From Bigelowiella natans CCMP2755 (lineage: Eukaryota; Protista; Cercozoa): a stretch of 62,287 nt of DNA. The stretch's first letter is position 1. Every line of letters starts with the position of its first letter. The DNA lies in contig ADNK01000465.1 in NCBI GenBank assembly GCA_000320545.1, positions 1 through 62,287 on the forward strand. The letters are read 5' to 3'. This document shows positions 9,268 through 49,968 of the stretch, piece after piece. The notes under the pieces were generated by a model that saw only the letters and a list, made by a program, of their open reading frames with translations, searched no databases and was not told the DNA's origin. Position numbers and translations under genes: made by a program.

Positions 9268-9499
9268 AGGAGTGTGCACACTTGGATAAAAAACTCCTAA
9301 CAAAACTTCCAATGACAGCGTGACTGTGTGACATGTGCTAGTAGCCAGATAGATCACATACTCGTAGATCTCGTGACGACTTCCGCATCGGAAGGAGAAA
9401 GACTCCCCCCCTCCCTCCCCACGCAACCTCGATGTCGTCGCCATGGCTTCCGTTCAAAACCAATGGCATAGGTTGGCAGCAGTCTCTATCTAAATGTCC

Positions 9500-9547
<48 letters not shown>
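9029..9547. repeat. Microsatellite cluster: (GAAA)n ~9029-9150, (GTT)n 9235-9267, (CT)n 9502-9547
   Basis: Direct reading. Confidence 0.9.
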
Positions 9548-9550
<3 letters not shown>

Positions 9551-9762
9551 ACACTCTCACTCTCTCCCCCCCCCGATTTTATGTGGATCCCGATTCCATA
9601 TGATATTTTTGTGCTCCAGCCTTGAGGGATCGCTCACCAAGGGGACGTCAGCTTAAGCTCGTAAAAGGGCAGAAACTTCTTAGTAAGCATTGAATTATGG
9701 GCTTGTGATAGACCTTAGAAAGAGTGCAAACCAATTTGACAAGCGGTTGTCAATGCTAATTT

Positions 9763-12700
9763 ATGACCACATTGCCTCAACCCTCACCCTTCTTCCCCTC
9801 CCATTCAGTATCGCATAAGAAGGATCGATGGTATGCAGCTCGCACATTAGACTCTGATGGGAAACATAGTTGCCAGGGTATAGCTTTGATAACAGATATA
9901 GAGATCCAAAGCGCAGCCAATGTCGATCCGTCAGAAGAATGGAACTGTAAACGATGCAAAGCTGATAATCTTCCCAGTGAGCCAAATTGCACAGTTTGTG
10001 GGCTTATAAGGCCGACCCAGGCCCCCGAAAGCAGGCAGAAGGAAGCACGTGCCGCTCGAGTTGTGAAAGTAACAGGAAAAGCCGGCTGGTATGTCGATAG
10101 GTTGACCTTCCATTTATCAGATGGGAGAAAAAGATCTGTTGGGAAAAATGGTGGGAATCCCCAGCCTGACCTTGTGCTAGAATTTGGGGAATATATAACG
10201 GCTGTATCTGGACAGTATCATAGTGAATTCTGCGGCAAGGGCTTCATACTTCGCACCAGCGAGGGGAGAGACTTGGAATTGTCCGGAAGTAAATTCCGAA
10301 GAGGCAAAGCAAATGACTTCGCCTTTCGATGCCATGATAGCACCAAACAAATCGTGGCGATCAGTATGGATGGTGGCAAATGCACAGGCATAATCGTTGC
10401 TCCACGCCCAAATATTGACTACAAGGATATAGAACAATACCGAAAAAAAAAAGAAGAACTTGCCGAGAAGCGGTGGGCGAAGAAGCTACGGGAGACAAGA
10501 CAAATAGAAGAGCAAACAAAATACGGATTTTCAGGAAATATTGGAGAAAATTGGATATGCAGTCGATGTTTTTATACGAATCAAGCAAAATCTACCAAAT
10601 GTCATATATGCTCATTCAAGAGGTGTACATCTCACTCGGCGACGGACGAAAGTGGTGATTTAAAACATAGCGGAAAATCACTGAAGCTCTGCGGAAAGCA
10701 AGTTGCAAAGCTTAAATCTGATGGCGTAACGTTGACAGGAGAATGGTATGATCTTGAGGAGTGCATAATGCACAGCAGTGGTAAATACGAGGTAAAATTA
10801 GCGGACTCCATCCTCGCGCGCAGGGACAATAAGGTTGGCCAGAGATCGCAAGGAATATCCCCGGACCACATTCGCCTGAGTGGCCTTTCAGATACTGCAG
10901 CAACTTCCCAAGGGAAAATCCAAGAAGCGAGCAAGTATCAGCCTTGGCGCGGTCCAATTTACTCTAGCCCATCATTTATGGGAGAGTTTCTTGACCCCTT
11001 TCTGCTGAATACTGATTTAGTGAGATCTTCACGAGCTGTGAAAGACAACAGCCAAAGAACCTACGCTTACATTCTAAGAAGCTTGACGAAATCAAACGCC
11101 TTTAATAACACCCGCGACAGCCTTACTTTACTCAACAATAAGGAAGTAAAGATCGTGAAGGACGTATCGTCTCTTTTGCAGCGATCAAGCGAGCATTCGT
11201 TTTCAAGTTCCAAGTCAGCCTGTGATTCTGTGTCAAGGCACCTAGGGAATCTAGCTGTCGGTGAAATGGAGGCATATAGCTACAGCTGGACTGTCCATGC
11301 GATCATGCTTATATTTGAACGCCGATCAGGGCGTGGTTCATCTGGAACTTTTGATCTTGTGGTCTGCAATAGTGGAGAAGGACTATCTTATCATCCAAGG
11401 GGTGAGAGGAAGGTTAGGTGCTCAGTGCGCCTTGAGGCTATTCCTGCAGAAAGGATTTTGAATCCAGCACTGCAGTATATGCTGTGGAGCCTCAGAATTC
11501 ATGACAACTACAGCAATTGTGCGGCCATGTTTTATGAGGGGGTTCTCCCATTTCTTCTCGGAGGGCGATCGATCAGTGCCTACGTCGCCCCCCAGAAGGT
11601 CCAGGCATATGATGATATGAGAAAGACCCAGAAGGCAGGGACGTGCTACTATAAGTGTGTCATTCAGTGTGTCCATTATCTATTGCGACGAAAGGGACTT
11701 TCCCTTAAACAAACAAAGCAGGTTTCCTACTGTGCCCGCAAGCTTTACATCGAGCACATTCTACCAAGCTTGAGGCACGTCGGATTTATGACTTCAAGCG
11801 ATAAAATGGTGATTGATATTGCTTGTCAGCAGACAGCACGTGCGGCATTGAAGGAGGTTAACCGAGGTCAGCTAAGTGCAAAGGGGATGAAAGAGCTGCA
11901 AGATGAAATTTTAAGTATTAAGAATAAGGTAGGCGAGATCACCACCATAAGCTACGGGACTCTGGTGCCTCCCCAAGAGCTTCAAATGGAGCACTGTGTG
12001 CGTTTACGACACTTTGTGGGCCTCGATGATTTGCTCCCGCTAACAAGTTCTCAGTTGGCTTTCATAGAACGCCGAGCCCTTGGGAAAAGGCAGGACGTAA
12101 ACTCAACCAAGTTCTGCAACTACGAGGAGATTCGCACATCTTGTGGTCCAAGTATATCCTCCATCAAAAATTCCCTCGAACGATGCAAAGCGCTAGTAGA
12201 AACTAATCACGAGTCTCCAGCCCACATGACACTAACAATGCAATGCATCCGAAGTTTGTTCACTGAGTCGATTCCTGTCCCACGGCCTCCGGACCAAAAA
12301 GGTGAGAGCATTCGTTTTCTTGTATTATTGTATGACCCTAATTTGTATGTCGTCAAATGTAAGCTCTTCCGCAAGCCTCCCCACTGTTTTGTTTATCGGA
12401 AATAATCGTATATTTATGAAAATATTGTGGTAGGTTTCTGGTATAAAGTGGGCTCGAAAATAAATCAATCTGACCAGGACGATATCCTCAAGTCAATATC
12501 AACCATTTCGAAATACTACGTTTGTTTTGCAAGATCAATGCAGCCTTCTCGTGCCACAGACTCAGAGCAGGCGGTGGTTTTGATTTGTATGTTTGTCCTA
12601 TTCGATGCTGTCGCAAGGATCCAAACGGGCTCTCCGCTTAGCGAGGAGTTGCAGCAGTTTTCGACTTCCTTCTGCGCTAATGGGAATGGGTCTCTTTCTA

Positions 12701-15700
12701 TTAAAGACTTGAGTAAAAATTACTTTCTCGTTCAGCCTTCGCTTCTGGTGGCACTGGGACATGCGTGTGCGTATTCTTGGCACCAGCACACCACGCACAA
12801 AGTGAGCCTCTCGAGTGTGGGAAAGGTGTTTGATTATAGTTTAGCGCGGCAAAACTTCTTGACCGAATGCGCGACTTTCCAAGTGGTTCGAGGCTTGTGC
12901 AGGAGGCTTGACATCAAGGATTACAGCAATTCCCCCGTTGAGTTCCTCGCAGAACAGGGCTTTGGAAACTCCGAACTCCGTAGGAAATGTCAACAATTTG
13001 CCATAATGCGGGATCTCGCAATGGTGTTCAAAATTACCTTGAAGGGTCATACGGGGATCTGGAATATCCCTCAGAAAATGCGAAAAGTACCCGACGCGGA
13101 GATCAACTGGCAAATAGGGGAGACTGACACTTTGAAAAAAAAAATAAGGATAAATTTCTGGACGTTCGGAGCGTGGATTAACCTTGACTCACCAGGCCCC
13201 TGGAGGAAACATGCTGGCTTCGGAAGCGGCCTCGACCTACAGAGAGACTTCGGAATCAAGTGCAGTCAGGATACTGTTCGTGGTGTGACAGAGGAGGATG
13301 TTCTTCACACAGGAATTATGCCAACATTTGGGGGATCAATGGCAGGGCAGGATTCCGAAGCATTGCTAACTTATCTAACAGTCCCCTACATGCGAATCCC
13401 TTTAGTGCTAGGTTTCTTTAGCTGCAAGCAGAGATTTATGTCTCTGATCGACCCTGAGCTCCAAGATCTAGTCAACGCCGTCCTCTTTGAAAGCAGCATC
13501 GCGGATCCATATAGAAGTGATCGAAAAGCAGTGATCCCGTGCCAGCATTTGATTCGGGCGAGAAATGGCTATCTAATAAATGAACTCACACATTCACCGA
13601 ATTCTGTCATCTCCCCAGTCGCAAGGATGCTGACGCAGGCTCTGGATCAGCTGGACCTACGGAAATGCACGTCCAGCTCAACTGGCGTGATGCTGTTTAT
13701 TAGCATGCTTGTTGCCCGCGTGGAATTATTTCGCGTCTACGTGCAGAACAATATTAATGAGCGCAATGAAGACTTTGAGGAAGCTCTGTCTCAGATTCGA
13801 CAGCCAAAATCGGTCCTCAGTGCGGTTTTGATGGATTGGATCCAGCAGACGACCATCTCGGGTGACATAAAGGCACACAATCGTTTCTCCGCGCACTTGG
13901 TCATCCTTCTATGTAGCACAGGACCCGCAGAAATGAGCCCAGAAATTGTCGGGAACTTCATAGGAAACATGGCGCATCTCGCCACGTACCACAAGTTTGG
14001 GGGGAGACCTGATGATAATGGCAAACGTGCCTTTGCGAAGTTCCATCCCCTTGGGGTACCAGACCACGAGATCTACTCCGCAGCGCAAGAATTTCGCAAC
14101 CGTATATTAGCTTGGCTAGAAAAGTTCCCTGATGAAGTAGATCTGACCTTGAAAATTGCCGCCAGAGTGTGCCTTAAGCCTGGTGCTAAGACATTTGAAG
14201 GCTGGAAGAGGAAAAATAGCCATGGTCTTTACATAGACGGAAGGGAGGAAGTCATATTTGATCTCCAGAGGTTTGTTATGACCACGGTAAGTGCGAAAAT
14301 CCAACCCTTGCCTGAGTTTGTGAAGGCCCATCCTGAGTTTCAGATTGTCTTCGGGAAAGAGGATCGCCACTGCTCGTTAACCGAAAAATGGGTGCATAAG
14401 TGTGTTTACGATATGCTGGATCAAAGGAACTCGAGAATAAATGTGTGGTCGAATTACTACGAGTCATGGTACGCTGCAAAATCTCAAGATAAGAATGCCC
14501 AGGGGAGGTTCTATGATCCGCATGAATTTGTCGTACGACATCCGACAGTTCATCGTGGGATTGAATTTGATGGCATCGAGTACACACGGCAATGGTGCCC
14601 TAGCACACTAATCCAAGAGGCTCTTAATATCTTCTATACGGATAAATATTGCAGAACCAATGCTTGGAGTGGCGACGAACCTCGGTTATGGGCCCCCAAA
14701 AACACGCCAAAGAAGAATCGTAGCGTCGTATCTGCCATATGCCGCGAAGGTTTCACGGACAAACAAGATCCCGGAGTGATGAAATTGATCAATTACTGGC
14801 CGAAGCTCAAACTCGTGAAAGTGTGGGCGCTGCGCGAGAGAGGGCGACGAATAGTAAGGGAGCTTATCTTCAGCTCTGACGCTCGTTGCAGCTTAATGGA
14901 CCTCAAGACACAACGTGTGGTGAAGCAAGCGTATCCTGTTGGCCTGACTCCAGGTCAAGACTGGGGTGTGGAATGGCCGAGAAACCTTCGACATTGTGCG
15001 GGCAGGGTGTGGGAAGAAAACCAAGATCTTAAATGGCGGAGTAGCATAGTCATAACTCGAGATCGGGTCGATGGAAAGGGTCGGGAGGAATTCGTTTCTT
15101 CCGCAGCCCTGAAGGGTGTGATTCCATACACTCTTACAGAAAATTTCTCCTTTTGGAGACCTGAAGGGGAGCCACTCATCGAAGGTACAAGGCGAGCTAA
15201 TGACATCACACCTGATACGCTTCTACAGTATAGCCTTTCTATATCTCTGCTCGAAAACAGGGATAGGCATGCCCTGGGTAGCGTGAACAAGGTTATGGCG
15301 CGTGTGGAAGCAACCGACCTCAATGATCCGAAGAGGAAAATGTTACTAATTGACATTTCACTAGCGAGCAAGGATTCGTTTGCCTACCGCCTCGGTAGAG
15401 TACTTACCCGACTTGACAACATGTCACACATCCTCGTCTGGACCGAAAATACGTCTGCTAAATCTTGGCAACAGTGCAATATTTGTCTTATTGAACTCAC
15501 ACGCCTGAGGCTGAGCTTTGTGCCACGGAATACCCCAACAGGGGTTAAGCTCTTTTGCAGGGAAATTTCAGGCCTTTATGTCTCGGACCTGCGCAGTCCA
15601 ACGATCCGTCATCAAATCAGCTGTCTGCCAAATAGTTTGCTACTTCAGAACTCCGGAAACGAGCTGTACATTCTGGCGTCGAACGCCAGACCGAAACGCC

Positions 15701-18700
15701 CTGTCGTTTTCACCCGCCCACTTTCGTCCGAGATCATCGTGGATTTGCAGGATGAGAGCTGGCTAAAGGATATGACGCAAAGGTACTCCGTATTCCCGAT
15801 CCACGTCTCAAGGGCATTCATCATGCCTCAAAACCTTGTTGATTCGCTGTACCTTGCGCTCCACTTTGTGCTTCAGCGGCGTTTTGAAGACGCCTCTCGC
15901 CTGATTGAGTCATGCGAGTCCGATATGCCTCTCTCAGACTCGGAGCGATGTGTTCTAAAGTTCTGGGAAGCCATTGCGCACGACACCCATCCTGATACCG
16001 TGGCTTGCAAACTCAAGCTTTCCCTTGCATTGATGTATTCCGGGGAAAATAATCTCCTAAAGTGGTGCATCGTACATGAGTTTGGGAGATACTCCCCCGG
16101 TCACGTAAGGGCAGAATGTAAGTTGAGTGCTATTGAAGTCGAGAGACTCCGTGGATATGTTAAAGATATCGATGATGTCGAAAAGAAAAGAAACAAAAAC
16201 GAAAATGGAGGGAGCCCAGCAAAGGCTAAATTTTCCCATTCCGATCTAAACTCTGTGAAATCCTTCGCGAAGATATTTCCGGAGCTCCGCAACCAGAAGT
16301 ACACTTCAGAATGGCATCCAGGTCAACAAGACGGCTGGCCATCATTTGTCGAGTCTGCTCGACAGTGGTTCCGGGCGACCGATTTCGATAAGTACTATCA
16401 TGAACACGACCGATGCATCTGGAAGGCAAAGATCACTTATGTTGGGAGAGAATATCCTGTTTTAAGAGGTGGGAATGCCTATACGATGATGGCAGAGGTG
16501 AAGAAGGATAGCATAACAGGGCGTGTAACTGGGTCTGGATTTTTGTTTTTGTGGGACCTTATTCAGGGAAAGATAAGCGTACAGTTTGGGAACGAGGTCA
16601 ATTCAGGTCCTCAAATGGCTAAATTTCTCTGCAAGTGGATGTACCACGAGCAGACTCTATGGAACAAGTCGAGCCTTTCCGCAACCGAGAATAGTGGCGA
16701 AAAGTCCCTGTTTCCCTTCTACGCAGCCGCGGTTATAACTGCAGCTGGAGAGGCGATTCCGTCATTGCCCGAGTTCCCGTTTGAGAGGTATTCAAATAGC
16801 TTGTCCGACAGAGACGGCTACCCAACCTTTGAAGAAAAAAACAATCACGGGGATTGGACGAGTGAGCACCTTGGACCTTGGTTCCTGAAGATGTTCAAGG
16901 CTGTGAAGGAGATTGCAGAGGGCAAGGGAGTCAGTCGAGAAATCGAAGCGGGAGGTGATTATCAGAGGCACAACGATCGGAAAGCAAAAACTGCTAACCG
17001 ACAGACAGTCCTAGTGCCTTTCCCCGAAACAACTGATTTCTCGAATGATAATCTCCGTGTATACGCGTCACAATTCACGAGCCCGAGAGGCAACACTTTC
17101 AGCGTTGATACCAAAGATCTGAATCGCCATTATAAACACCCACTTTCGTCAATAGGCTTAGATCAATGGATAGTAAAAGCAGCTACCTCGAATACTGGGT
17201 CCGGGAAGCTGCGATTTGATCTTTCGGGGCATCCAGAATCTAGGTCTCAAAGGGCAAAAACTATGATTTCTTATATAAAAAATGACACACTATTGCATGC
17301 TAAAAATCAGAAAACTAAGATGGCAGTAGATTTCCAGGGATTGTCGCCAGAAGATGTTGCAGCATACGTAAGAGATGGGCAGAACAAAAGCATTGACACA
17401 GTGATTTCTAATCTTAAGTCGTTAGTGCAAAGACTAGACGAAATGCGGTCTCAGGACCTACTCTACGTCGCTGCTGCTGTTGATGCCGCGCTATCTACTT
17501 GGGCCAATGTAACGGATGACTCCAAAAAAATCAAGTTGCAGCTGCGATTCTCGCTCGCCAAAATCAGCCGACAGCGAGCGAGTGCCTCGTGGGATTACTT
17601 ACTAGCTTCGCTTCTCTCTACAAACATGTACCATGACTTGAAGAAAGTGAATCCTTTTCTCTCCAAGTCAGATTTCGACAAAACTCGCGATATTACAGTC
17701 GCCGCACTCTTTAGAGGCAACCGAATAGGCCAAGCTTGCCGTGCTATTGCACCAGCATCCGCTCTTATTGGAATGTTGCAAAGCCTCCAGCAAGGTAATA
17801 CAGGGGACGTCAAAGTCTTCGAGAAAAAGCTCATCGGCAAAGTCAAAAGTCTAGTCACATGGCTCACGGCTACCCGCAACTTCACCGGGGCGGATGCAGG
17901 CAAACCTCTGGACCCCCGATTTCTACTATTCGAGTACATCTTCAATATTGTACTCTGGAAGCGACAAGTGGAACAAGTGCGAGAGTTTGCAGACGTGAAA
18001 AGGGCTGTCATTTCACAGATGGTGATGGGGTCCGGAAAATCGTCAGTCGTCTCGCCTATGATATCACTACTCCTAGCTGATAAGAAGAGCTTGGTCGTGG
18101 TGATGGCGCCAGACGCTTTGCTAGTCATGACGCGTGACCTTCTACGCGAGAGATTCTCGCACATCATCAAGAAACGCATTCTCACTCTTTCATTTAACCG
18201 TAACTTTTCCCCAAACTTCAGAGACAGCGCTGTTCTCGTAAAGCGGCTCTGTTATAAGATGGAAGGCGTGCGCCTGCAAGGAGGGGTAATGGTGACCACC
18301 CCAGAAAGTATTAAATCACTCTTCCTCAAGTTTGTCGAAATGCTAAATTTCTTGGAGATGAGTCCCAGTGAGCAGACTACTGAGGGGAGGCTAAGGTGCG
18401 ATGCTGCGTTTAAGGCATGCCAGGAGTTCTCAGGCGTCCTAGGCATGTTCAAGGACGGTGTGATTGTAATGGATGAAGTTGACTTGCTCCTGCATCCTCT
18501 CCGCTCAGAACTTAATTTTCCAGTCGGACAGAAGACCAAGCTTGATATGTTCGGTCCGCGCTGGGGCTTGCCTATGCACCTCCTCGAGGCTGTGTTTTAC
18601 GCCCGAACTGGGGAGCTATCGTCCGATGCCTTGCGCTCTAGTATCTTGGCCCTCGAAGCCCTTGAAGCGATTAACGAGGCTATGAAGGAAGGGTTCCAAT

Positions 18701-21700
18701 CGCATGCGCTACAAGCCTTGCCTCATTTGATACTTCTCAACACCAAATTTTATCACAGTCGCCTGAAACCGCTTCTTGCTGACTGGCTGGTGTTGTGGTT
18801 TCAGCAAGGGTCCATGCAAGGAGGTAAAGATATCACAGGCGAAGACATTCGTTGCTACCTGTTGTTTGGACCGCAGAGTAAGAAAGCTCTGGCTAAGAAG
18901 TGCCTAGCTAGTCTCACCGGGGAGGAGATGCAGAAGCTAAACCTTGGACATACATGGATTGACCAACTCGCCCCACACGTATTATCGAAGATCAACCGTG
19001 TCAACTATGGACTACTCTTCCCCGGAGACGTCAATCCGGAGGAGAGCGCGAACATTCCCGACTCCCGTAGAAGCCTGGCCGTGCCTTTCGTGGGGAAGGA
19101 CAAGCCCTCTTGTGCATCCGAATTCGCGCATCCAGACGTGCTGATAGGGCTCACTATAATGGCGTATAGGTACTCGGGACTGCGGCCAGACGATACGAAA
19201 GCTGTGGTGTCCCAGATGAAGAAAGACTTTCTGTACGAAACAGGGCCGAAGGATCGGCGCCCCAGTTGTCTACGGTATCAGAGCTGGATAGGTCAAGCTA
19301 GGGCGACGACGGACGTTAATCCACGAGGATCCCTCGGGGGAGATAGTGGTGATGATTCTCACCAGCTTGTGCCTCTGCACCTTGTCCAAGTGAGCGACTA
19401 CGAACAGATGGACACCGTCCATAAATGCTTCAAGCACATGTCACCAGTCATCAACTACATGCTCGACTCCACCGTGTTCCCTACCTACATGTACCAGCAG
19501 ACAACCAAGCTCTCTGCAAGCGGCCAGGAACTTGCAGGGGACATACTCTTCGGTCGTCGAATTGGGTTCTCAGGAACCCCGAGCTCCATGCTGCCTCTTG
19601 ATTCTGGCAAGTGCAACTTTGAACCGGGGACAGGCGGGAAGCTGATTAGCGTGCTGTCGGACCCGACGATAATGTCGGTGGAGTTCAAGGAGGAAAAATG
19701 GACCGTTAAGAGCCTCCTTAGAGACGTGGCGACTGCCGATTCGCCTTTCCATGCTCTGATCGACACTGGTGCTTTGATCACGGGCTTATCGAATTATAAT
19801 GTTGCTGAATACCTACTCAAAGTCGGTCTGCTGCACGTGGATGGAGTGGTGTATTTCAACAATGACAACGTCAAGATGGTCCTGCAGAGAAACCAGGTGC
19901 CTATTCCTCTCAGCCGTTGTGGCCTCAGTAAGAAGCGCAGGTTCACCTTCTACGACCAAGTGCACACTACAGGTATAGATATAAGGCAAACTCTAGATGC
20001 GCGAGCAGCAATTTCCATTGGCAAAGATCTCGTCTTCCGAGATTATTCTCAAGGTGCTTATAGAATGAGAGGTATTGGTAAGGGACAGACCCTCTGCGCT
20101 ATTGTGATCCCTGAGGTGAAAAAGCTCATGCTGGAGGAGTTGGCGCTGGTATCGAATCCTGGCGAAACTTGGCAGGATAAGCTCGTCGCATGGCTCTATA
20201 TAAACTCATTACGAATGGAAAAACTCCAGTTTCTTCAGCTCTGCATTCAGAACATGCACAATGTGTGGAGAAAGGCGGCACTAAGTGCTCTAAATAACAA
20301 CATCAAGGGAACCTCATACGCTGGACCTGAAGCACACCAAAAGTTTTTGGGATCAGGTGGCAACAGGGAACATATTAGAGTTTTCCGCGAAAGTATCAAT
20401 TTCGACGTCGAGAAGAAGGTGACAAAGCCAAAAAGCCTCTCTGACATTATAAGTGCAGCTAAGGCAGCCCATAAATCCTACCTTAAATCGCGAGATGCTC
20501 TTAGGGAATTCAACCTGGTGTTTGCTGCCGCAAATGCCACACCTGCATCTGAATCGGATGCTGCTAATGGCCTCGGGGCAGAGATGGTCACAGAACAGGA
20601 GCAGGAGCAACAACAAGAGCAAGAAGCTCAGCGCTACCAGGAAGTAAAGGTGTCATTCTCAAGGAAAGACGAGGCGCAAATCCCATTTGAAGTGAAAAAC
20701 ATTACCCTGGCTTTGGGCTCAGACGATTGCCCCTTCTACTCCTTAAGTCAGCTGGATCTTCCTACGATCGGTGCTCTAAGCTTCCCATCGACGGTATGTG
20801 TGTCAACAAACTACTTCAAACAAGGATGGACGGATGAGAGAAAGCTCAAGAACGTGACATGTATCCTAGACTGGGTGCCGCAGAAGAATTTACTGAATAC
20901 CAACCAAAAAGAGCGTGCGAAGACTACGGAAAAGCAAAACGAGGCAATAAACACGGCGTTTGATATGGCTGACAAAGATGGAAGTGGCGAGCTCTCAATG
21001 ACCGAGGTCCTTGCTGTCCTTAAAGCAGTTGGGTTTGAACCTGACGACAAGAAAAGGGGCGGCAACATCAAGGCACAAATTCGTTCCAAAATTGATTTGA
21101 ACGGTAACGGTAAGATATGTCGGTCCGAATTTATCCAGTCGGTCACGACTAATATGTTTGAGACCTCGCAGCTTGGGCGGCAACAAGTGGCTATCACGCT
21201 GGCTGAGGCTGAAGCAATACGGTATTACTTGCACACTCGGCATCCCTTGTTCGACGGAAAGAGGTCGGATGGTGTTTTGATATCGCTCGAGTCTCTTGAA
21301 GGGGGGATCTTTGATCAGTCTCCAGGGTTCTATTTGAATGCAACAACGGAGTACCATCGCAATAAACAATGCTTCGCATATTTTAATGGATCGATGCACA
21401 TGAGTAGCACCCAGACCTTCCAACTGCTTCAGGGGATCCAAAATGACCCCCCAAACAAGCGTGAGGATTATTTCAAAACCATCATGGGTTGTCGTAGGCG
21501 TGAGCGGAAAAGATACAGGGACACACCGCTAAGTATTGTATTTACTTCAGAAGATGAGTTTTCGCTTCTCGCCCATCGGCTGAAAGTAGAGCGGTTCAGA
21601 TATGCGCTTGAGGTGCGTGGCATTATGCTTCTCGATGCGTTCCAGGCCTTTGATCAGGATAAGAATGGGATACTTTGCACCGGGGAAATGATGAGAGCTG

Positions 21701-23721
21701 TCCAGCAGCTAAAGCTAGGGTTAAAACCTGCGGATGTTGCAGAAATAATCAATAGTGCCGACACGAATGCTGATATGGGGATCAGCTACGCTGAGTTTGC
21801 GGCGATGTTCCAAGACAAGGAGGATAACTATTCAAAAGATAAGGATTCGGATGGAAATCTAGATGCAAAGATTGTCTCAACCGCAAAGAAGTTCCTCAAA
21901 GACATGAAGAATCCGAAGAGAGTTAGTAAGAAGGAGTTATTGGAAGCCCAAAGAGCTGTCAACGCCTCAGCAGCAATCAAGGCCGGAAAAATAGCACAGG
22001 AAAAAGAAGAAGATATGCGAGCAGAAGCAAATATTAAAGATCCAGTTGCAAAGTATAAATCCATTATTCCAAACGGCTCAATATTCACATATTCCTACTG
22101 GGGAGGAGACTGCATAGCAAAATGGGTAGGATCAGAACTCTGGATAGGAGCAGTAAAATACATCAATAAAAATGGAACTGATGGCCTCCAAATTCTAAAA
22201 CTACGCCCAAATGAAGTCGAAAAACTTTTTGCGAATATGATCACAACCTGCTTGTGGGATAACCGTGATGAAAACAAAAGAGTAGAGTTCGTTGGAGATG
22301 ACAAAAAGAAGCCTGATCTTCTCTTTGACAAGAAGTATAGGATGTACTTCAAGTTCAAGAAGCTCCCAGCAGCAAAGAAAATTCGTTGCGACTCGATTTG
22401 TTTTCTTGTCGGTTGCCATGGCAACGTCCTAAGCTGTGATGGGAACAATCAGCCTCGATGCTCCAGCCAAAATCGTTTAGCATGGGAAGCTATGCATCTA
22501 ATTGATGAAGGAAGAGATCGTTACTGCATCCAGTCTCAAAAGAATAAGTGCTATTTAAGCACACAGCAAGATGGATCAGTAACGTTTAACGCAAAATCTA
22601 AAGAAAATAACGCAATCTGGTTCATTGAGGAAAAAGGGAGCAATCATTTTTTCGTCAACTCCCAGACCAACTATGCGCTTCAGGCACGTCCCAACGGCGG
22701 TGTTTTTGCTGTTAACACAAACCGCGCGGCTTGGGAAGCTTGGACTCTTGAGTATAAAGGAAACGATCCAGCTGCAAAGTATAAATCCATTATTCCAAAC
22801 GGCTCAATATTCACATATTCCTACTGGGGAGGAGACTGCATAGCAAAATGGGTAGGATCAGAACTCTGGATAGGAGCAGTAAAATACATCAATAAAAATG
22901 GAACTGATGGCCTCCAAATTCTAAAACTACGCCCAAATGAAGTTGATAAACTATTTGCGAATAAGATCACAACCTGCTTGTGGGATAACCGTGATGAAAA
23001 CACAAGAGTAGAGTTCGTTGGAGATGACAAAAAGAAGCCTGATCTTCTCTTTGACAAGAAGTATAGGATGTACTTCAAGTCCAAGTCTGTGATAAAAGCG
23101 ATCCACGCGATCTCGAGCAAACGAAATGAATCCGTGGCATACACTCCTCAACTCCCAACAGCGAAGAAAATTCGTTGCGACTCGATTTGTTTTCTTGTCG
23201 GTTGCCATGGCAACGTCCTAAGCTGTGATGGGAACAATCAGCCTCGATGCTCCAACCAAAATCGTTTAGCATGGGAAGCTATGCATCTAATTGATGAAGG
23301 AAGAGATCGTTACTGCATCCAGTCTCAAAAGAATAAGTGCTATTTGAGCACACAGCAAGATGGATCAGTAACGTTTAACGCAAAATCTAAAGAAAATAAC
23401 GCAATCTGGTTCATTGAGGAAAAAGGGAGCAATCATTTTTTCGTCAACTCCCAGACCAACTATGCGCTTCAAGCACGTCCCAACGGCGGTGTTTTTGCTG
23501 TTAACACAAACCGCGCGGCTTGGGAAGCTTGGACTCTTGAGTATAAAGAAAACCGACAGACCGATAAATCCGTAAAGACTTCGAAAAGGGTTGGTGAGAG
23601 AGTACAATTGGAAGACCAAAGACCCGTCGTCATCGCTCAGGTTGTTGAGCATGAAGAAATTCAACAGTCGGATGATTCTAAGAGTGCTAATTCTCCCTCG
23701 CAATGTTGCAGCATTGTTTGA
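9763..23721 (+). CDS. Giant (~4608 aa) DUF3638/DUF3645-type SF2 ATPase protein with RanBP2-type Zn fingers, jacalin-like domain, Cys-protease-like domain, EF-hands, duplicated beta-trefoil domains and a CaaX end
   Basis: ORFs 9763-12405 and 12427-23721 join in frame through one intron, 12302-12433 (G|GTGAG...TAG|GT). Motifs: WNCKRCKADN..CTVC, WICSRCFYTN..CHIC, GWYVDRLTFHLSDG, QMVMGSGKS, DEVD, LAVPFVGKDKPSCASEFAHPDV, FSGTP, QGAYRMR, DKDGSGELSMTE, DQDKNGILCTGE and terminal CCSIV. Confidence 0.88.
22039..23548 (+). repeat. Intragenic tandem duplication (~720-bp units, 22039-22759 and 22765-23548)
   Basis: DP(V/A)AKYKSIIPNGSIF...AAWEAWTLEYK occurs twice with near-identical DNA. The second unit has a ~60-bp in-frame insert. 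Confidence 0.95.
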
Positions 23722-24466
23722 ATGAATGAGATCTCTTGAATTACATCTAAAAATGCATTTGTTGTCAATGATTGCATGAGATTCCAGTTGATGATTCAAA
23801 AAAGAGCAAAGATGCATTTGCAAAAGTAAATTGTCGCATGGTGTTGCAGCATGTGTGCCATGGCAGCAAAAAGATGCTTGCATGTGTGTGTGCATTTAGG
23901 TTTTCAACGTGGAACCCCTGCCCATGCTAGCATGTAATGTGCATCGTGCTTCTCACAAAGCCGCAATGAAAGTAGTGTCGCGTTGATCGTGCGTGCCTTG
24001 CGCAATAATGCTAGAATGCGTTGATGTAAGCGATGGCTACGAGAACTGTTGGTCATCATGAAATCCAGCTAGCGATGCGGCAGCTCTCGTCGCCCATAGC
24101 TAGATAGTGGTCTCATTGCATCTCGTGACTGTCATGCAATGGAGATTTCATGCGATGAGAGGTGTAGGCGCGCCTAAGATTGAGCGATGAGCTACTAAGG
24201 GCTAGGAGGTGAGCAGCGATCACTGCAAATTCCACTCCACATACTAACATGCATGCATAAGTCTAGATAGACATCACAGACATAATGTGTCGATCTAGAC
24301 GTACACAATTAGCTTGTGACATGTCTATACACACGGTGCGAACAAGGGTGCATCCTAAACCGGCAATGTTCTAGCATTGTCGCGCTCCGATGCGCTCGTC
24401 ACATAGATGCTTCGCGCACCTAATTTTGAAAGGGAACGATGTTATAGCTGGGAAGCGAGTCTTGCC

Positions 24467-25357
24467 TCAGCGTGCACGAGAATGAACTCGCTGCTTTAGC
24501 TGACCTTCTCTGGAAATTAAATACCGATGGCCCTCCAACTTCTCCGAGCCAAAGAGAATGGGGCAGCCTTGGATATTGAGTTTCTCGAGGGATACAGAAC
24601 TGCGCAGAAAGGTGCAGATGGCGGCGGAAGAGGCCTCCGTGATTGAGTTAAAACTGACATCAATTTGAGACAGGTACTGCAGGCCCCCCAGTGCGGGAAA
24701 TAACGTGTTCCATCCCTGGTCAGTCACTCCAGTTGTGCTGAGATTCAGGTCTATTAGCGATGCCAAGCACCCACCCTCCCCCTCCCCCTCCTCTCCGTCC
24801 GCTGCCATGTATTCCTCCTCCGGCAGCGATGATGGCGGTGAGGATGCAAACAGTTCTGCCAGTAGCGTCGCGCAACGGTCATCGAAGAGCGAACAGGAGA
24901 AGTCCAAAGACACGATTTGAGCATGTTGCGCATACGTGTCGAGCTTGAAACTTCTCAAAAGCCCTCCAAGAGCCCGCCATCCCAACGCACAGTCGAAGAT
25001 GCGGATCTCAGAGGGCCAGAAAACGCCCTCTTGCTCCAAATCATCGAGTATCGAAATGACTGCGCGGTTGGCGCGAAGCCCCCCTTCCCTCTCTCTACTG
25101 ATGATCTCATAGCACTGGCGAAGCGTGGCGTTTTTAAGCTCTTTCAGACGCGCGGAAGTGCTTTTCACGCGGCGTTCGACAGTTTCTTCTCTGTTGTCGC
25201 TAGTGTTGTTTCTTGCGACCGCAGGTTGCTCTCCTCCTCCTCCTCCTCCTCCTCCCTCTTCCTGCTGCTTGTTATTAGATGAAGCGGCCAGTAGATTTTG
25301 GCAAATCATATGATCTTCTTCGTCGCTACTACTACTTCCCCCAGAAACCTGCATTGT

Positions 25358-25391
<34 letters not shown>

Positions 25392-25967
25392 CTATCGTCG
25401 TCATCTTCTGCTTGGTCCTCGGCGCTTATTCTTTTTCTTCTTCTAGCATACCAGCCGCCCTCATTATATTCCTTACTGCCACCTATTTCTTCCGAATCAA
25501 AGGCTGTGGTAGCAGATGCAGTAGTCGTAGTAGTACCTACGCCCTTCCCCCAGAAATCCAGCAACGATCCCCTTTCCCCCCCCCTTAATCTTCCGTTGCG
25601 GCTACTGCTGCTCAGAGCTTGTCGCTGCGACGATGGGTGTCTTCCATCTGGGCGCTGCCGCCACTTTTTGAATCCTCCTGTGAAATTATCCCTCCTCCAA
25701 CTACCGCTTATTACATTCGTGTCGACGTCATCACCACGACGATTTGAGCTGCTTCTGTTGCCTCCAGAGTTGTGCTGCTTGGATGATGGGGAAGACCCTC
25801 TGGCCCTCTTGCGTCTTGACGAGGGGAAGGAGGAAGTGGAGGAGTGGGAGGAGGAAGGGGGCCTGCTGTCGGGATTTTGAACATTTGGGTCATTATCATC
25901 ATCATCATCATCATCATTGTAAAAACTATAATTATTATCATCATCAAGAAGAGGCGTCAGTGAAAGA

Positions 25968-26006
<39 letters not shown>

Positions 26007-26068
26007 CTGCAAGCCAGATACATGCTGCTGCTGCTGCTGCTGATGATGATGCGGCTGTATTTGATTAC

Positions 26069-26100
<32 letters not shown>

Positions 26101-28159
26101 GTATTATGTGCTCAGACATCCTCAATTGATTGCTGTTGCTGTTTCGCCGCGCATGCATGTGCTACAACTACTACGCGTAGATAATCGGCCTCACATTACC
26201 TTCTCCCGCCGCCACGCTTCTGGCTTCTTCGGTTCGTCGTTCTTGGGCCTTTCCTCCTTCCATATCCGCCACAGCCATCGTCGCTGCTGCCCCCATGCCT
26301 CCTCCCCCTCTTACCCCTCCACCACCTTCTTCGGTCAAGCTCCCTCTCCATTCCCATCTGCCGCACCATCAGCGCGACGGTGTAGCTGTCAGTTGTGTGT
26401 AGTAAGCGTCGTCGTTGTGCGTTTTCGTCGCTATTCCTACCTACTACCCTACTACCACTACTACTACTACTTCTATTGCTGCCGCTGCTGCTGCCGCCCT
26501 TTTCCATGTACGCTCGGCGGTACTGACGCAGTTTCTGAATATCACGCATGCACTTTTTCTCCGTGGCCAGGTCACCTTGCTTGTCGCACACGAGCTCGAG
26601 GGCCTGTAGCAGCCGTAGCTGCGCCACGCTGTCGTTTGCAGAGCGTGCTAGTCTCAGCCCAGCTTCGATGCGGGAGCGACATGATGATAAGGATGATGAT
26701 GATGATGATGATGCTTTCAGCGTATCCGTCGCTGTCTCCTCCTCCTCCTCCTCCTCCTCTTCTTTCTCATGTGTAGTTTCTCCCCCCGAGCATTCGTAGC
26801 AGCACAGCTCGAGCACGCACGCAAGCTCGCCGTTCTTATCGCCAAGGCGACGATAGATGGCCTGCGCGCGCAGCAGCCACTGCCGTAGCCCTGTGTTCTC
26901 CCGACTTTGCTTTACAGCCCACCGGCCAGCAAGAAGGAGAGCCTCAGCCCGCTTCCGATCTGTGTTGTCGTCATCGTCGTCGTCGCCATTCTCATTCTCA
27001 TTATCATCGAGAATGGAGAGGAGAGTGGTGAGGTGGATGGTAACGTCGACTGACGTCTCTGCGTTGTCGTAACACAGCTGCAGCAATCGCATGATTAGTT
27101 CCTGTTGTTGTTTACGCGACGATTTCTCTTCGATGTCAACTTCTTCTTTTTCTTCCTCCTCCTTATCATCATTATCATTATCATCATTGTAGTCGCCGTC
27201 CTCCTCATCGTCATCCTCGTCGCTGCTGCTGTGGAGGAGCCGTCGCCTATTCGTCGTCCTCTTTTTCCTTTTCTTTTTCCCCGTCATCTTTTTCTTCTTC
27301 CTTCTCTTGGAGAGCATTCTCGCGAGCTGCGCTTCGATCCGATCGATTTCCTCCTTGCGTTCCAGCACCCTGCGGCAGAGGGCCATCTTCGCAGTGGCGT
27401 CCTTACTCCTCTCGTCTGTGTCATCGTTCTCATGGAGGTCGGAGAGGAGCAGCTTGGCGTCGGCGAAGCTTTGGAGCGCCAGCTGAAACTCCCCGTCCCG
27501 CATTCGCAGCTCTGCGTGCTTCACGTAGACCTGGGCCTTCTCGCCGAGAAGGAATAGGGGGTCGGCTGGGTTGTCTCCCGCGTGTAAGTCGCAGTACCTC
27601 GACGCGCGCTCGATGTACTTCTCGGCGGCCTCGAGAGATTTCTCCTCCTCCTCCTCCTCCTCCTTTTCCCTTTCGCCGCCTCCCACCTCAATCGCCATGT
27701 ACAGGTCGACGATTCGGAGACAGGTGAGGACGTAAGACACGTGCTCCTTATTGCGCTTTGCTACATCTAGAGCTTCGCGCAGGTAGTTGATGGATCGCCT
27801 GGCGCTTGCTGCAGCTACACTGCCTGTGGTGTGTGTGATGGCTCGCGTTCCCCCCCACCTCCTCGTCCTCCTCCCCCCCCCCCTCCTGCTGCTCTTCAGG
27901 AAGGAATTGATGCGAGGGTAGGAGTAAGCGATGGCCTTGGCCACGAGGGCCTGCTGGATCATCGAGTTTCCCTTTGAAGGTATGCGACGGGCCGAGAGCT
28001 GTTTGTTGTATCACACACCACGCAACACGCGCACACGCAGACGCCATCCAACATCAAACGATGGCAAACGACAGCAACAACGACGATGGACACATATTAT
28101 TATAATTATTACACCCCATCATCATCCTCCCCATGCGAGCATGGTAGTTGATGGGAGTC

Positions 28160-28204
<45 letters not shown>

Positions 28205-28688
28205 GGAACGAAGCAAGACGATATATCTTTTCCACATAAGTACTACAGCGCCTCCTCCTCCTCCTTCTCCTCCTCCAATAACAACAACAAGAAGAAGTAC
28301 TACTACCAGAGCTTCCTCGACATGACGGCCCGCTTTCGCCGCGAGCTCTTTGGCCTCTCTCCTCGAGCACCCACCAGCAGTAGCAACGTCATCGTACTCC
28401 TTCGCTCGGTCCAGGCACGCATACGCGAGGCGAAGATGCACATTCCAGGACTCTCCCACCAGCTGCTGAGCTTTTGCAAGCAGCCTCCACCTCTCATACG
28501 CCGCAGCTGCCTTCTCTTCGCTCCCCATGAGCATGTAGCAGTCGCCGAGGATGTGGTGCGAGTCAATCTCGAGGGACCTCCTCCCGCCGGAGTGAGTGAT
28601 GGAGAGCGCGCGCTGCCCGTACTGAATGGCCTCTTGGGGGATGTTGGCCTCGAGAAGCTTGCGAGCCACCTGTGCAGAAGCCGAAATT

Positions 28689-28757
<69 letters not shown>

Positions 28758-28789
28758 TAGCCAAGATGAAAGATGGGGAGGGGGGAACT

Positions 28790-28833
<44 letters not shown>

Positions 28834-28900
28834 GGAAGGCGGAAAGACTAAGGGGGAGAAGATGCTCATACAATGAAATAATGTGTCGATGTAAATATGC

Positions 28901-28939
<39 letters not shown>

Positions 28940-31900
28940 ATGTATATTCTTAAAAACAGGAACCTGTAAGCACCACAGAGCCTCTTGGTCTAGATTGCGG
29001 CTTCGCTCAGCATCCTCGAGTGCTCTCATGCAATCATCGATGTCTACCATAGAGAGGGGGGCGGCATCCTCATCAGAAAGACTGTCTTCATCTTTTTCAT
29101 CTTCTTCTTCTTCACTTCCTTCCAATCCCCCCCCCCTCCCCTCCTCCTCCTTTCCTCCTTCATCATCCTCGACTACGAACGGCCGTCTACTGCTTCCACC
29201 ATAGCGGTCCCCTCTCCTCCTCATCCGTTTTCTCCCGCCGGCGTTTGCTGCGCTAGAAGAAGCAGAGGGGGAGGGGAAGCGGCGACGGCCGTTTCTTTTC
29301 CTGACGTTGCTACATTCAACGTCCATTGAGGATGCGAAAGAAGGCCTCCTTCTACTTTTGACTCCTCTTCTCTCATCGTCATCATTATCGTCATCATCCT
29401 TGTTTTGCTCCCCCCCTTCGCTGCTGCTGCTGCTATCAAGCGTGCTCTCGAGGCTGGCGAGTGCATCTCCAGTCACTATGACTGACGATGACAGTCTGCT
29501 GGAAGCAGAAGCGGCTTTCGATGTCGATGATATATTTGCCCCCCTCCCTGTCTTTGTTGTCGTTGGCGAATCCGATTTTACACCCCCCCCCGCTGGTACT
29601 TGCGAGGAGTCAGACGCGAGGGCTGTATTTGGCTCCTTCTTCGCATTCAATTCATCCTCGCCACTTTCATGTTGCCGTTGGCGGTGTTGTTCCTTTTTAT
29701 TCTTCTTGCTACCGCAACCACTGCTACTAGCGCGAATACCACGACTGTCACGGAGGTTAAGGCGCAGGATCTGCTTCCGCAGCCTTGCGCTAAGGGATGA
29801 TGATGAGCTCGCTCTCTTGTTCTCATCTAGAATATCTCCCTCATCGAGCTCAGAGGAGCTCCCGCTCTCTTCGCCTTCCTCTTCTTTTTCCTCCTCCTCC
29901 TCCTCCTCCTTGCTGTTTTCTTTAAGCCGCTCCTCTACGTCAAGAATGCTGGTGAGGGTCTCCTGAAGCTTCTTGTCGTGGCGAGGTAAACTACTGCCTT
30001 TGGCAGAAGACGACGTCAGCGTTACGTAGATGTTGAAAAGAACCGACTTCTGGATGCTGAGATCGTGAAGCTCTCGGCTGATTTGCAGCGCCCGTTCGTA
30101 GGTTTTGACGACATCAGAGGGCGGGTATTTGGCCTCGTCCATCGCGTCCCCAAGGGAGCTAAGAGCTATGGCACAAGACTCGGTTTGCTGTAGCTTTTGG
30201 TAGATAGAAATCTCCTTCTGATGCCAGAGAACCGCCGATTTTCCTCTCTTTGCCTCTCTCAGCGCTTCGCCAATTCGCGCGTACAAACGGGCTTTCCGCT
30301 CCTCCTTTTCAGCAACGGCGATCTCACTCTCCCCTGTCGTCCTGCCCCCCCCATTCTCTTGATCATCATCGATGTAGCCCTCAAGCTCAATGCAGCACTT
30401 GGCTTCTTCCTCGCGCATGCCGAGGGCATTATAAAGATCAGCTAGCTCTGTAAGCACATCTGCCTTGCGCTTACCCCCCTCCTCACCATCCCCTGCATAT
30501 CGATGCAGCTCCCGCTTTAGCTGCTTCACCCGAGAGCTCTTTTTAGTCATCGCAGCGAGCTCCCGCATGAGCTCCTCGAAATCCTCGAACGGATACCCGC
30601 TCTTCCTTGCCCGCCGGAAGGCCTTCTTGGCGTCATCAAAGGCCCGTTTTCCTCTACGCACCTGTCCAAGGTTGAAGAACGCAGCCCCGAGGTCCTGCTG
30701 TGTCTCCTCCCCCTTCTCTCGAAAGTCGCTGTAGATGGAGATGCATCGGCTGAGAGCATCTTCTGCTAGCTCCAGGTTCCCGCTTCCCATATAGGCGACC
30801 CCGAGAGCGTTGAGGAACTGAGCCTCCCTCATAGTGTGCTTTGAGCACGTGTCCAACCCCTTCATGTACCTTGTTAGAGGAGACATGACAACAATAACAA
30901 CAACAATAATAACAACAACAACACTATAAACCCAGCGAATGCATGCATGTTTGGTGAGAAGAATGACGAAAACTGTAATGATAGTAGGGGGACGCATTTC
31001 ATACATCCCCATTCCTCACTATACGGATTCTACGGATATGTTAAAATTTGTGAGAAGAAGGAGATGCAACACTGCTGATAGTTCTGTCGCTGTCGCCGCC
31101 GTCCTAATGCTACTTTGCAGCTAGGCACCCACCACTCAATCGCCAGCTCATGACTTTCCTGAAGATCACACACCGTTCCAAGGTTAAGGTACGCGTCACG
31201 AAGATGCTTAAGAGCCTTTTTCGAATATTCAGGCATTTGACGTAGGGCCTCCGCCTCCTCCAGGCTCTCGTGAAAGTGACCGAGGGCTTTCTCAAGATTA
31301 AGTTCCTTTTTAATCGACCCCGAGAGCTGCGAAGACTCCGCTTTCTGTAGGTACGCGTTTCCCAGAGCACAATACGCCCTGAGGGGAGGGGATGAGAAGG
31401 ACTTTATTGGAAGAGATGGTAGCTAAACTATAGAAGAGTGGAGAATTTTCGCTTGCAGGGGATGGATCATCAAAGTGTAGGTTCTACCATCGTATTATCA
31501 AACCTCTGCAGTTCGAAGGCGTCCTTCTTTCGTGCTTTCGCCACCCCGACCTTGCGATGAAGCGCAATATCGCGTTCAAAGGATGATATTGCCTGAAAAA
31601 TAATATTTTTACCGTAAGCATTTTTGCTTCTGGGATGCAGGATATTGCGGATGTTAATGTTACTGTTCACCTCTTTAAATTTGTTTTGTCCCATGTAGCA
31701 GAGGCCCGCGAATCTGTGGGCCTTTGCTATTTCGAGAGGTTCGTTAAGCTTCTCGCATAATAACAGTTCCAGTTCGTGATACTGTGGAAGAGGTAGAGAA
31801 AAAAATGAGTCATTGTTTGCGCACATGTCGATGCATGCGACTGCGGTGTCGTCGACAAGTGCACAAGCCATTTCTCGGGAAGCTTCTTTCTTCGAAGCCG

Positions 31901-41876: not shown

Positions 41877-41892
41877 TGTTAGTCAAATCGTT

Positions 41893-45699: not shown

Positions 45700-46080
45700 A
45701 TCACGTATTCTCGCCCCACAAGACGGCCGGGCGCAGACTCCGGGTACAGGCGAAGGGAAGGGGGACCGAATGCGATCAGTCCTCTGTCGCACCTCAATAC
45801 AATTTAAAATAATAATAATAAGATCGTTTTCATCCCTGCGACAACCTAATAATGATAATTATTGTTATTATTTCGCCTAGATCTATGCACCGGAGCAAAA
45901 AGGAAGACCCGAATTCCACACTTCGCCTCTTTTTGCCTCATTGCTGGCGCCGAAGCCATCCACCCCCCCCCCCCCGCCCTCAACAGCCGCGACTGGGCGT
46001 CAACAAAAACCAGATACGTGGATGAAAGGAGGAACTAGTTCAATACACTAAAGCCGCTTTGAAAGAGTTGGCCTGGAGAT

Positions 46081-48022: not shown

Positions 48023-48058
<36 letters not shown>

Positions 48059-48348
48059 GTAACGGTGAGGGAAGTTAGGGAGTGGCGCACAGGCACACAG
48101 TGAACAGAGAGTTATATCCTTTTTAAGACTCCCGTACACCATGGTGGTTTACAATGTGTATTTTGTGGTCTACTCTATGAATCCAGGCCGTCGCAGCTTA
48201 CGATCGAATGGTGGCAAACCACGTGGAACCGAACGAGATCACGCACAGCGCTCTTATAACTGGATTCGGTATTTTATATAGATGGAGCCCCCCCCACCCG
48301 GAGGCGCTCCTATCTGTCTCGTTTCCTTGTTCCATCACCTCCCCTCCC

Positions 48349-48386
<38 letters not shown>

Positions 48387-49033: not shown

Positions 49034-49077
<44 letters not shown>

Positions 49078-49888: not shown

Positions 49889-49968
<80 letters not shown>

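What the first reader, a model, noticed from the sequence alone, without database searches (positions are those of the whole stretch)
9763..23721. ~4600-aa multidomain sensor-effector-like protein built around a SecA-like SF2 ATPase
Seen: Walker A QMVMGSGKS (~18016), DEVD (18472), FSGTP (~19567), HTTGIDI (~19965) and QGAYRMRGIG (~20050). Established: these parallel the SecA motifs MKTGEGKT, DEVD, GMTGT, GRGTDI and QLRGRSGRQG, and match the uncharacterised DUF3638/DUF3645 giant-protein family. Here the core is flanked by two RanBP2-type Zn fingers, a jacalin-like lectin (~10057-10400), a protease-like domain, two EF-hand pairs (~20970-21130 and ~21650-21800), two fascin/ricin-like beta-trefoils and a lipidation signal. 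Inference: a Ca2+-regulated, membrane-anchored ATPase/protease machine with swappable recognition domains, an architecture reminiscent of innate-immune or biological-conflict proteins.
Basis: partly seen in the sequence, partly recalled or inferred. Interest (0 to 1): 0.75.

Follow-up and report, generated by a model that had tools for sequence, protein, structure and literature searches.

The report
Giant algal SecA-like motor with protease
This real, spliced algal gene encodes a giant protein whose core is predicted to fold like the bacterial protein-export motor SecA and whose head keeps a protease-type set of residues, so it likely grips, pulls and cuts other proteins; it is one more member of a widespread but unstudied family.

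Summary
The gene is one transcript of four exons, not two ORFs. It is a DUF3638/DUF3645 protein with at least 388 giant relatives. The predicted core matches SecA best (Z 18.4; best helicase 13.8), with a clamp-like insert and long scaffold helix, and its ATPase motifs are almost invariant. The head domain matches only the cysteine-protease-like domains of Legionella LegA15/AnkD and AnkH (Z 17.5, 16.6); its His-Asn-Gln-Cys set is intact here but in only 9 of 87 full-length relatives. RNA suggests about 5-8 tandem copies of the C-terminal 277-aa unit, collapsed to two in the assembly. Relatives often carry UBA and NZF-type fingers, pointing to ubiquitin-linked protein handling; an immune role is possible but unshown. 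I found no paper on the family's function, but this scan has noted the family and its SecA likeness on many other genomes.

The parts
9432..9471 (+). Coding exon 1 (ATG at 9432); intron 9472-9619 follows
   Evidence: Loose end of X1 contig matches 9440-9469; GT..AG ends and exact match to P0003. Junction inferred, not listed as a joint.
9620..9682 (+). Coding exon 2; with flanks encodes a ~60-aa N-terminal segment that looks SH3-like by eye only
   Evidence: X1 contig piece 9618-9682 and joint 9682-9809 in X1 and X5; no SH3 hit in Pfam at E<=1
9809..12301 (+). Coding exon 3
9940..9999 (+). RanBP2/NZF-type zinc finger 1 (lacks the TF pair)
   Evidence: motif match; Pfam weak, E 0.026
10060..10362 (+). 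Jacalin-like beta-prism domain
   Evidence: Pfam PF01419 E 1.7e-5, above cut-off; weak hits to ZG16, griffithsin, banana lectin
10552..10611 (+). RanBP2/NZF-type zinc finger 2
   Evidence: Pfam PF00641 E 5e-4, below cut-off; motif
10939..11940 (+). AnkH/LegA15-type cysteine-protease-like domain; His 11296, Asn 11368, Gln 11629, Cys 11644
   Evidence: model pLDDT 90; Z 17.5 and 16.6; conservation
12302..12433 (+). Intron of 132 nt that joins the two ORFs in frame
   Evidence: joint in X1 and X5 contigs
12434..23721 (+). Coding exon 4 (11.3 kb) to the stop
12434..17760 (+). About 1,800 aa of family-wide, unannotated middle region
   Evidence: covered by 34-120 of 120 proteins per 100-aa bin; no Pfam; no Atlas hit for 13600-15700
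17872..20487 (+). SecA-like SF2 ATPase core (DUF3638 + DUF3645): two RecA-like domains, motifs I 18016, II 18472, III 19567, V 19963, VI 20050
18511..19518 (+). Insert in the first RecA-like domain, leaving and returning by two long beta-strands (position and topology of SecA's PPXD clamp); contains DUF3645
   Evidence: model strands 249-258 and 576-584; aligned length rises to 553-558 with SecY-bound SecA
20170..20310 (+). 47-residue helix after motif VI (position of SecA's helical scaffold)
   Evidence: model helix 802-848
20971..21129 (+). EF-hand pair 1
21652..21795 (+). EF-hand pair 2
22036..22761 (+). Repeat copy 1 in the assembly: unknown 105-aa module + fascin/ricin-like beta-trefoil (726 nt)
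   Evidence: 97.5-98.5% identical to copy 2; not separately seen in RNA contigs
22762..23592 (+). Repeat copy 2 = the 831-nt (277-aa) unit that RNA contigs show as a tandem loop of likely 5-8 copies
   Evidence: 861-nt looping contig in 5 of 5 spliced-contig runs that cover the gene body, depth ratio 6.5-7.8; trefoil: Pfam Fascin E 1.8e-4
23704..23718 (+). C-terminal CCSIV, a CaaX-like motif with an adjacent Cys
   Evidence: sequence; raw RNA reads pile up at 23480-23875

Best explanation
This expressed four-exon gene encodes a giant DUF3638/DUF3645 protein that likely works as a cytosolic, ubiquitin-linked protein-remodelling motor: a core predicted to fold like SecA would grip a polypeptide and pull it with ATP, and a predicted cysteine-protease head would cut it or its ubiquitin-type tag. 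Shown: gene structure, expression, domain order, conservation of motifs. Predicted: SecA-like fold with clamp-like insert and scaffold helix; AnkH/LegA15-type fold of the head. Inferred: polypeptide (not nucleic-acid) substrate; proteolytic or isopeptidase activity; Ca2+ control through four EF-hands; membrane attachment through prenylation of CCSIV; targeting by the jacalin domain and the trefoil array, possibly to glycans exposed to the cytosol. The motor is the family's constant; the protease site and the targeting modules are optional.
For: One spliced contig spans 9618-22068 with both listed introns. Core model pLDDT 84, pTM 0.83; the first 24 VIA rows are all SecA/SecA2 (Z 18.4-14.2) before DinG at 13.8, and the match runs from SecA residue ~22 to ~816, through the scaffold region; Foldseek ranks 1-6 are SecA. 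Motifs I, II, III, V, VI invariant in 120 of 120. In SecA the clamp is formed by PPXD and the two beta-strands linking it to NBD1 (PMC9926265, abstract and introduction seen); the model has an insert with that topology. Head: only 2 of 48,161 chains reach Z 8, LegA15/AnkD and AnkH; AnkH's domain was described as CE-clan-like with His-Asp-Cys and patterns rGHa, D/NRg, GNCSWANV (PMC6712400, passages), matching GHA, NTG, G[TN]C[YF] here. His and Cys are kept or lost together in the protease-picked set (69 both, 23 neither, 11 one, of 103). Ubiquitin context: UBA in 48 of 120 (hand count), NZF-like fingers in 95 of 120 with T[FYLM] in 131 of 164 fingers, ubiquitin-like, AZUL, WWE fusions.
Against: No activity was tested. 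SecA match is remote (9-13% identity, rmsd 4-6 A, TM about 0.3) and no SecA sequence profile hits. MDA5, RIG-I and DinG also score. Neither solved relative of the head has shown proteolysis: none was detected for AnkH and LegA15 was reported to be a GTPase using the same Cys. No SENP/Ulp1 or other true DUB is among the listed fold hits. The triad is intact in only 9 of 87 full-length proteins aligned at all three sites. This protein has no UBA and its two fingers lack the TF pair. Lectin assignments are weak and sugar sites were not checked.
Confidence: 0.42

Rival explanations
1. Cell-autonomous immune or conflict effector: the lectin-like domains recognise microbes, viruses or damaged vacuoles and the motor plus protease attack or strip them.
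For: Accessory domains differ among relatives; the paralogue P0004 carries jacalin after the scaffold helix instead of at the N-terminus; the trefoil unit is a recent near-identical tandem expansion with no relatives found; the head resembles Legionella effectors; DUF3638 is listed among large microsporidian gene families (PMC5423893, one figure-legend passage) and a DUF3638 gene is among the most polymorphic predicted effectors of P. brassicae (bioRxiv 10.64898/2026.10.14.759018, one passage).
Against: About 40% core identity across many protist lineages and only two Bigna1-labelled proteins among the 120 listed look more like a conserved cell function; the gene is expressed in all five contig runs with strong coverage that I laid; no induction data; no confirmed viral relative in IMG/VR scans (low sensitivity).
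Confidence: 0.25
2. The core is a nucleic-acid translocase or sensor (MDA5/RIG-I or DinG-like), and SecA likeness reflects shared SF2 ancestry.
For: Most SF2 motors act on nucleic acids (established); MDA5, RIG-I, DinG, Hel308 and Brr2 appear at Z 12.7-13.8 or E about 1e-4 to 1e-3; RanBP2-type fingers can bind RNA (recalled).
Against: SecA leads by over 4 Z units and aligns 430-558 residues against 300-400 for helicases; no nucleic-acid-binding domains among the accessory Pfam families of 120 relatives.
Confidence: 0.18
3. The head is not a protease but a LegA15-type GTPase or a catalytically silent binding domain that only regulates the motor.
For: Top fold hit LegA15 binds and hydrolyses GTP, needs Cys361 and Gln356, and barely needs His268 (PMC9757750, sections 10-11); Cys is lost in most full-length relatives while the domain stays (95 of 120 have it).
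Against: By motif register the GTP-binding Arg291 and Lys367 of LegA15 fall on Ser556 and Ile653 here, and on T/S/A and mostly L in the 69 triad-intact relatives; His co-varies with Cys, as expected for a triad. The register was not checked by residue-level superposition.
Confidence: 0.15

Closest known systems
DUF3638/DUF3645 giant proteins (Pfam PF12340 + PF12359), e.g. B. natans paralogue P0004, Thecamonas P0016, Pelomyxa P0012, oomycete 'ubiquitinyl hydrolase 1' entries
   Same: Both Pfam domains above cut-off; core 35-55% identical; shared region from the head domain to the EF-hands.
   Different: Own N-terminal fingers plus jacalin, own C-terminal module-plus-trefoil array and CaaX; intact triad, unlike 78 of 87 full-length relatives; no UBA or thioredoxin domain. 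The UniRef name is an automatic label, not a test.
SecA / SecA2 preprotein translocase ATPases (PDB 2fsf, 1tf5, 5eul, 4uaq)
   Same: Predicted two RecA-like domains, DEVD motif II, insert on a two-strand stem in the first domain, long helix after motif VI.
   Different: 9-13% identity, no SecA profile hit, embedded in a >4,600-aa eukaryotic protein, no evidence of a SecY/Sec61 partner.
Cysteine-protease-like domain of Legionella LegA15/AnkD (7ew8, 7kj6) and AnkH (6mca); CE-clan-like (XopD, Ulp1)
   Same: Fold over 259-274 residues, His-Asn/Asp-Gln-Cys order and motif patterns.
   Different: No ankyrin repeats; LegA15's GTP-binding basic residues appear absent; fused to a motor.
RNF213/mysterin and p97/Cdc48 (recalled, no call)
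   Same: Analogy only: giant or ubiquitin-linked ATP motors that remodel proteins, RNF213 with a carbohydrate-binding module and an antimicrobial role.
   Different: Those are AAA+ rings; this is an SF2 two-domain motor with no E3 domain found.

Membership tests
DUF3638/DUF3645 family | PF12340 and PF12359 above gathering cut-offs, in that order, in a giant protein | tested here: met
   98.5 vs 31 and 50.3 vs 25 bits
SF2 ATPases | Two RecA-like domains with ordered motifs I, II, III, V, VI | tested here: met
   motifs; model and fold hits
SF2 ATPases | ATP hydrolysis | not testable with these tools
   inferred from invariant Lys, Asp-Glu and Arg in 120 of 120
SecA | Sequence match to SecA profiles or sequences | tested here: not met
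   no SecA family in Pfam at E<=1; no SecA chain at E<=10 by phmmer or profile
SecA | PPXD inserted in NBD1 by two beta-strands (clamp) | tested here: inconclusive
   insert with this position and stem in the model; longer alignments with SecY-bound SecA; residue-level superposition not available
SecA | Helical scaffold and two-helix finger after NBD2 | tested here: inconclusive
   47-residue helix present and aligned range reaches SecA ~816; the finger itself could not be identified
SecA | Works with a SecY/Sec61 channel | not testable with these tools
   no data
CE-clan cysteine peptidases | His, Asp/Asn, Gln, Cys in this order | tested here: met
   H531, N555, Q642, C647
CE-clan cysteine peptidases | Fold match to proven members (SENP/Ulp1, XopD) | tested here: inconclusive
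   only AnkH and LegA15 are listed; AnkH itself superposes on XopD with low scores per PMC6712400
CE-clan cysteine peptidases | Peptide or isopeptide cleavage | not testable with these tools
   no assay
LegA15-type GTPase | Basic GTP pocket (Arg291, Lys367, Arg408) with Gln356 and Cys361 | tested here: inconclusive
   Gln and Cys kept; Arg291 and Lys367 positions are Ser and Ile by motif register only; Arg408 not placed
CaaX-prenylated proteins | Cys four residues from the C-terminus with aliphatic a2 | tested here: met
   CSIV-stop; modification itself not tested; not conserved

The most novel reading that the evidence does not exclude
Eukaryotes have a second, unrecognised class of polypeptide-pulling motor: a monomeric SecA-fold unfoldase/extractase, independent of AAA+ rings and of a Sec channel, coupled to a new family of ubiquitin-type isopeptidases (AnkH/LegA15 fold) and, in this alga, aimed by a calcium-controlled, membrane-anchored array of about seven lectin-like repeats at glycans exposed in the cytosol.
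Probability: 0.25. Interest if true: 0.82.

Novelty: new variant of a known kind. Interest (0 to 1): 0.47.

Why it matters
If the motor pulls on proteins, a family present across protists (and, by its Pfam record and papers that list it, fungi, ciliates and microsporidia) gains a mechanism, and SecA-type translocation is no longer confined to Sec export. This member is a good test case: transcript-confirmed, with both the motor motifs and the protease set intact, and with separable domains of about 330 and 900 aa. It also offers eukaryotic relatives for the puzzling AnkH/LegA15 domain. The gene itself is already a public model and the family-level idea has been noted repeatedly by this scan, which limits the surprise.

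Tried and rejected
No whole genome is held for the window, so paralogue number and other copies of the repeat could not be checked. Sequence searches of PDB with the core, its profile (only low-complexity poly-Q hits) and the head profile gave nothing useful. ESM Atlas gave no usable hit for the repeat module or the middle region; no relatives of the repeat unit among proteins under 2,543 aa; these blanks show neither novelty nor absence. The ~1,100-aa 'compact' hits looked like a stand-alone family; the three I read start just before motif I and end at the EQE motif, so I treat them as fragments. IMG/VR scans confirmed no relative (pattern-based, low sensitivity). GTDB gave 2 loci in MAG contigs under 10 kb; L001 is 76% identical to P0204 over 691 aa and lies within the same family as the eukaryotic hits, so I do not count it as a bacterial member. 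Back-splicing as source of the repeat loop was rejected: the joint is not at GT/AG. SH3 at the N-terminus: by eye only, Pfam negative. No membrane-spanning segment beyond one marginal 19-mer. No holder run is on record as RNA in the index; their splice joints show they are RNA. No DUB or SENP row in the fold lists is not evidence of absence. No complex prediction was run.
Full report
Observation. The window is eukaryotic. Two ORFs in the same frame, 9760-12405 and 12406-23721, carry the finding. Pfam gives DUF3638, DUF3645 and EF-hands above cut-off, and weaker jacalin, RanBP-type finger and fascin matches. The best database hit, P0003, is labelled as a JGI Bigna1 (Bigelowiella natans) model and is identical over the core.

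Gene structure. Of 4 runs laid on 9550-24100, contigs of X1 and X5 skip 9683-9808 and 12302-12433, both GT..AG; one X1 contig runs unbroken from 9618 to 22068. The X1 contig's loose 5' end matches 9440-9469, implying a further intron 9472-9619. Exons 9432-9471, 9620-9682, 9809-12301 and 12434-23721 translate to 4,627 aa, identical to P0003. The recorded RNA run X9 (6% read) piles up at 23480-23875, which fits a 3' end just after the stop (read direction interpreted from the neighbouring minus-strand gene, an inference).

Collapsed repeat. The assembly shows two near-identical copies (97.5-98.5%) of a module-plus-trefoil unit. In X1-X5 (two studies) an 861-nt contig loops from about 23592 back to the start of the unit, at 6.5, 7.7, 6.9, 7.2 and 7.8 times the depth of the adjacent gene body. 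The joint is in frame (831 nt, 277 aa), is absent from the window and is not at splice signals. X7 held only a 529-nt piece and X9 showed no joint at its low depth. Allowing for 3' bias, I infer about 5-8 copies. A second locus with the same array cannot be excluded without the genome, though the steady ratio argues for one transcript.

Family. The core finds 388 proteins of 2,074-6,600 aa at E<=0.001; the 120 listed come from oomycetes, labyrinthulids, dinoflagellates, euglenozoans, Thecamonas, Pelomyxa and unnamed assemblies. Shared sequence runs from about residue 400 to 4,000; the first 400 and last 600 residues are private. Accessory domains vary: UBA in 48 of 120 (hand count), thioredoxin-like, EF-hand, ubiquitin-like, AZUL, WWE, MIB/HERC2 (11 proteins rescanned). 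NZF-like fingers occur in 95 of 120, and 131 of 164 fingers have T[FYLM] where ubiquitin-binding NZFs have TF (the TF rule is recalled). Many of the 120 are closely related oomycete orthologues, so the counts are not independent.

Motor. With 67 sequences the 958-aa core folds at pLDDT 84. Foldseek ranks SecA 1-6 (E 4e-6 to 2e-5), then MDA5. VIA-align on Foldseek's top 1,000 gives SecA Z 18.4, rmsd 5.2-5.4 A, 435-445 aligned; the first non-SecA row is DinG, Z 13.8, rmsd 4.6, 336 aligned; SecY-bound SecA aligns 553-558 residues. The model has an insert between motifs II and III on two long strands and a 47-residue helix after motif VI, the positions of the PPXD clamp and scaffold as described in PMC9926265 (abstract and introduction). 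The idea of a clamp was also in an earlier scan note; I tested it only by model topology and aligned ranges. Motif residues are invariant in 120 of 120. No sequence-level SecA match exists, so this works like SecA at most; it is not filed as SecA.

Head domain. The domain is found in 95 of 120; 18 of the 25 misses are too short before motif I to hold it. A whole-library search finds 255 relatives at 50% clustering. The model (98 sequences, pLDDT 90) matches LegA15/AnkD (Z 17.5, rmsd 3.6, 259 aligned) and AnkH (Z 16.6, rmsd 4.4, 274 aligned); the next row is 7.2 (Foldseek agrees). H531-N555-Q642-C647 is intact here, in 9 of 87 core-picked proteins aligned at all three triad sites (8 of 95 dropped for gaps; P0005 looks intact by motif but not by column) and in 69 of 103 head-picked ones (47 of 150 dropped; that set is biased toward the query). 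On a midpoint-rooted FastTree of the core the intact ones do not form one clade but lie in one part of the tree; I draw no order of events from it. AnkH's domain was described as CE-clan-like with no activity detected in vitro (PMC6712400, passages). LegA15 was reported as a GTPase needing Cys361, Gln356, Lys367, Arg291 and Arg408 (PMC9757750, sections 10, 11 and passages). By motif register the Arg291 and Lys367 positions are not basic here, which favours a peptidase reading but does not prove it.

Mechanism. Most likely (0.42) a cytosolic motor that clamps and pulls polypeptides, linked to ubiquitin by family context, with an optional Cys peptidase, calcium control and, here, membrane anchoring and lectin-like targeting. 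Fold assignments are predicted (core about 0.9, head about 0.9); substrate, activity, calcium, lipid and sugar binding are inferred. Rivals: immune effector (0.25, not exclusive of the mechanism), nucleic-acid motor (0.18), GTPase or dead head (0.15).

Literature. Searches for DUF3638 (6 papers), DUF3645 (2), DUF6606/Pfam/PANTHER ids (1) and three SecA-like phrase combinations found no functional study. I read passages of three DUF3638 papers, which only name the domain; the other three were seen as listings. PMC3482391 mentions SecA-like helicase-related domains in Amoebophilus effectors in one passage, with no link to this family shown. No supplements were read, and subscription papers are not covered, so a prior description may exist. 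Earlier scan notes report the same family, the SecA likeness and the protease-shaped head on at least eight other windows; they are not independent evidence, and their chlamydial and giant-virus members were not confirmed by my scans.

Verdict. Real gene, real architecture, start corrected and C-terminus likely longer than assembled. A new variant within a catalogued, unstudied family; interest 0.47.

Noticed in passing
window 667-4494 (+) and 36903-41882 (-): Two long ORFs with aspartyl protease, RT, RNase H and integrase zinc-finger hits in the same spacing: likely two copies of one Ty3/gypsy-type retrotransposon on opposite strands.
   Followed up: no
window 24467-31015 (-): Large ORFs on the minus strand, one with TPR repeats; raw RNA reads of opposite direction begin near 23975, suggesting a convergent neighbour whose 3' end nearly meets this gene's.
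   Followed up: partly
window 46063-50416 (+): Pentatricopeptide-repeat protein ORFs.
   Followed up: no
P0004 residues 3349-3476: In the paralogue's gene model the jacalin domain sits right after the scaffold-like helix of the motor (model position ~852), not at the N-terminus; it also has three TF-type fingers and an intact triad. The model is a prediction and was not checked with RNA.
   Followed up: partly
window 22762-23079 (+): The 105-aa module that precedes each trefoil has no Pfam, Atlas or sequence relative found.
   Followed up: partly
L001:3-9947: A 3,315-aa open frame of this family fills a 9.9-kb contig filed in a bacterial MAG; probably misbinned eukaryotic DNA.
   Followed up: partly
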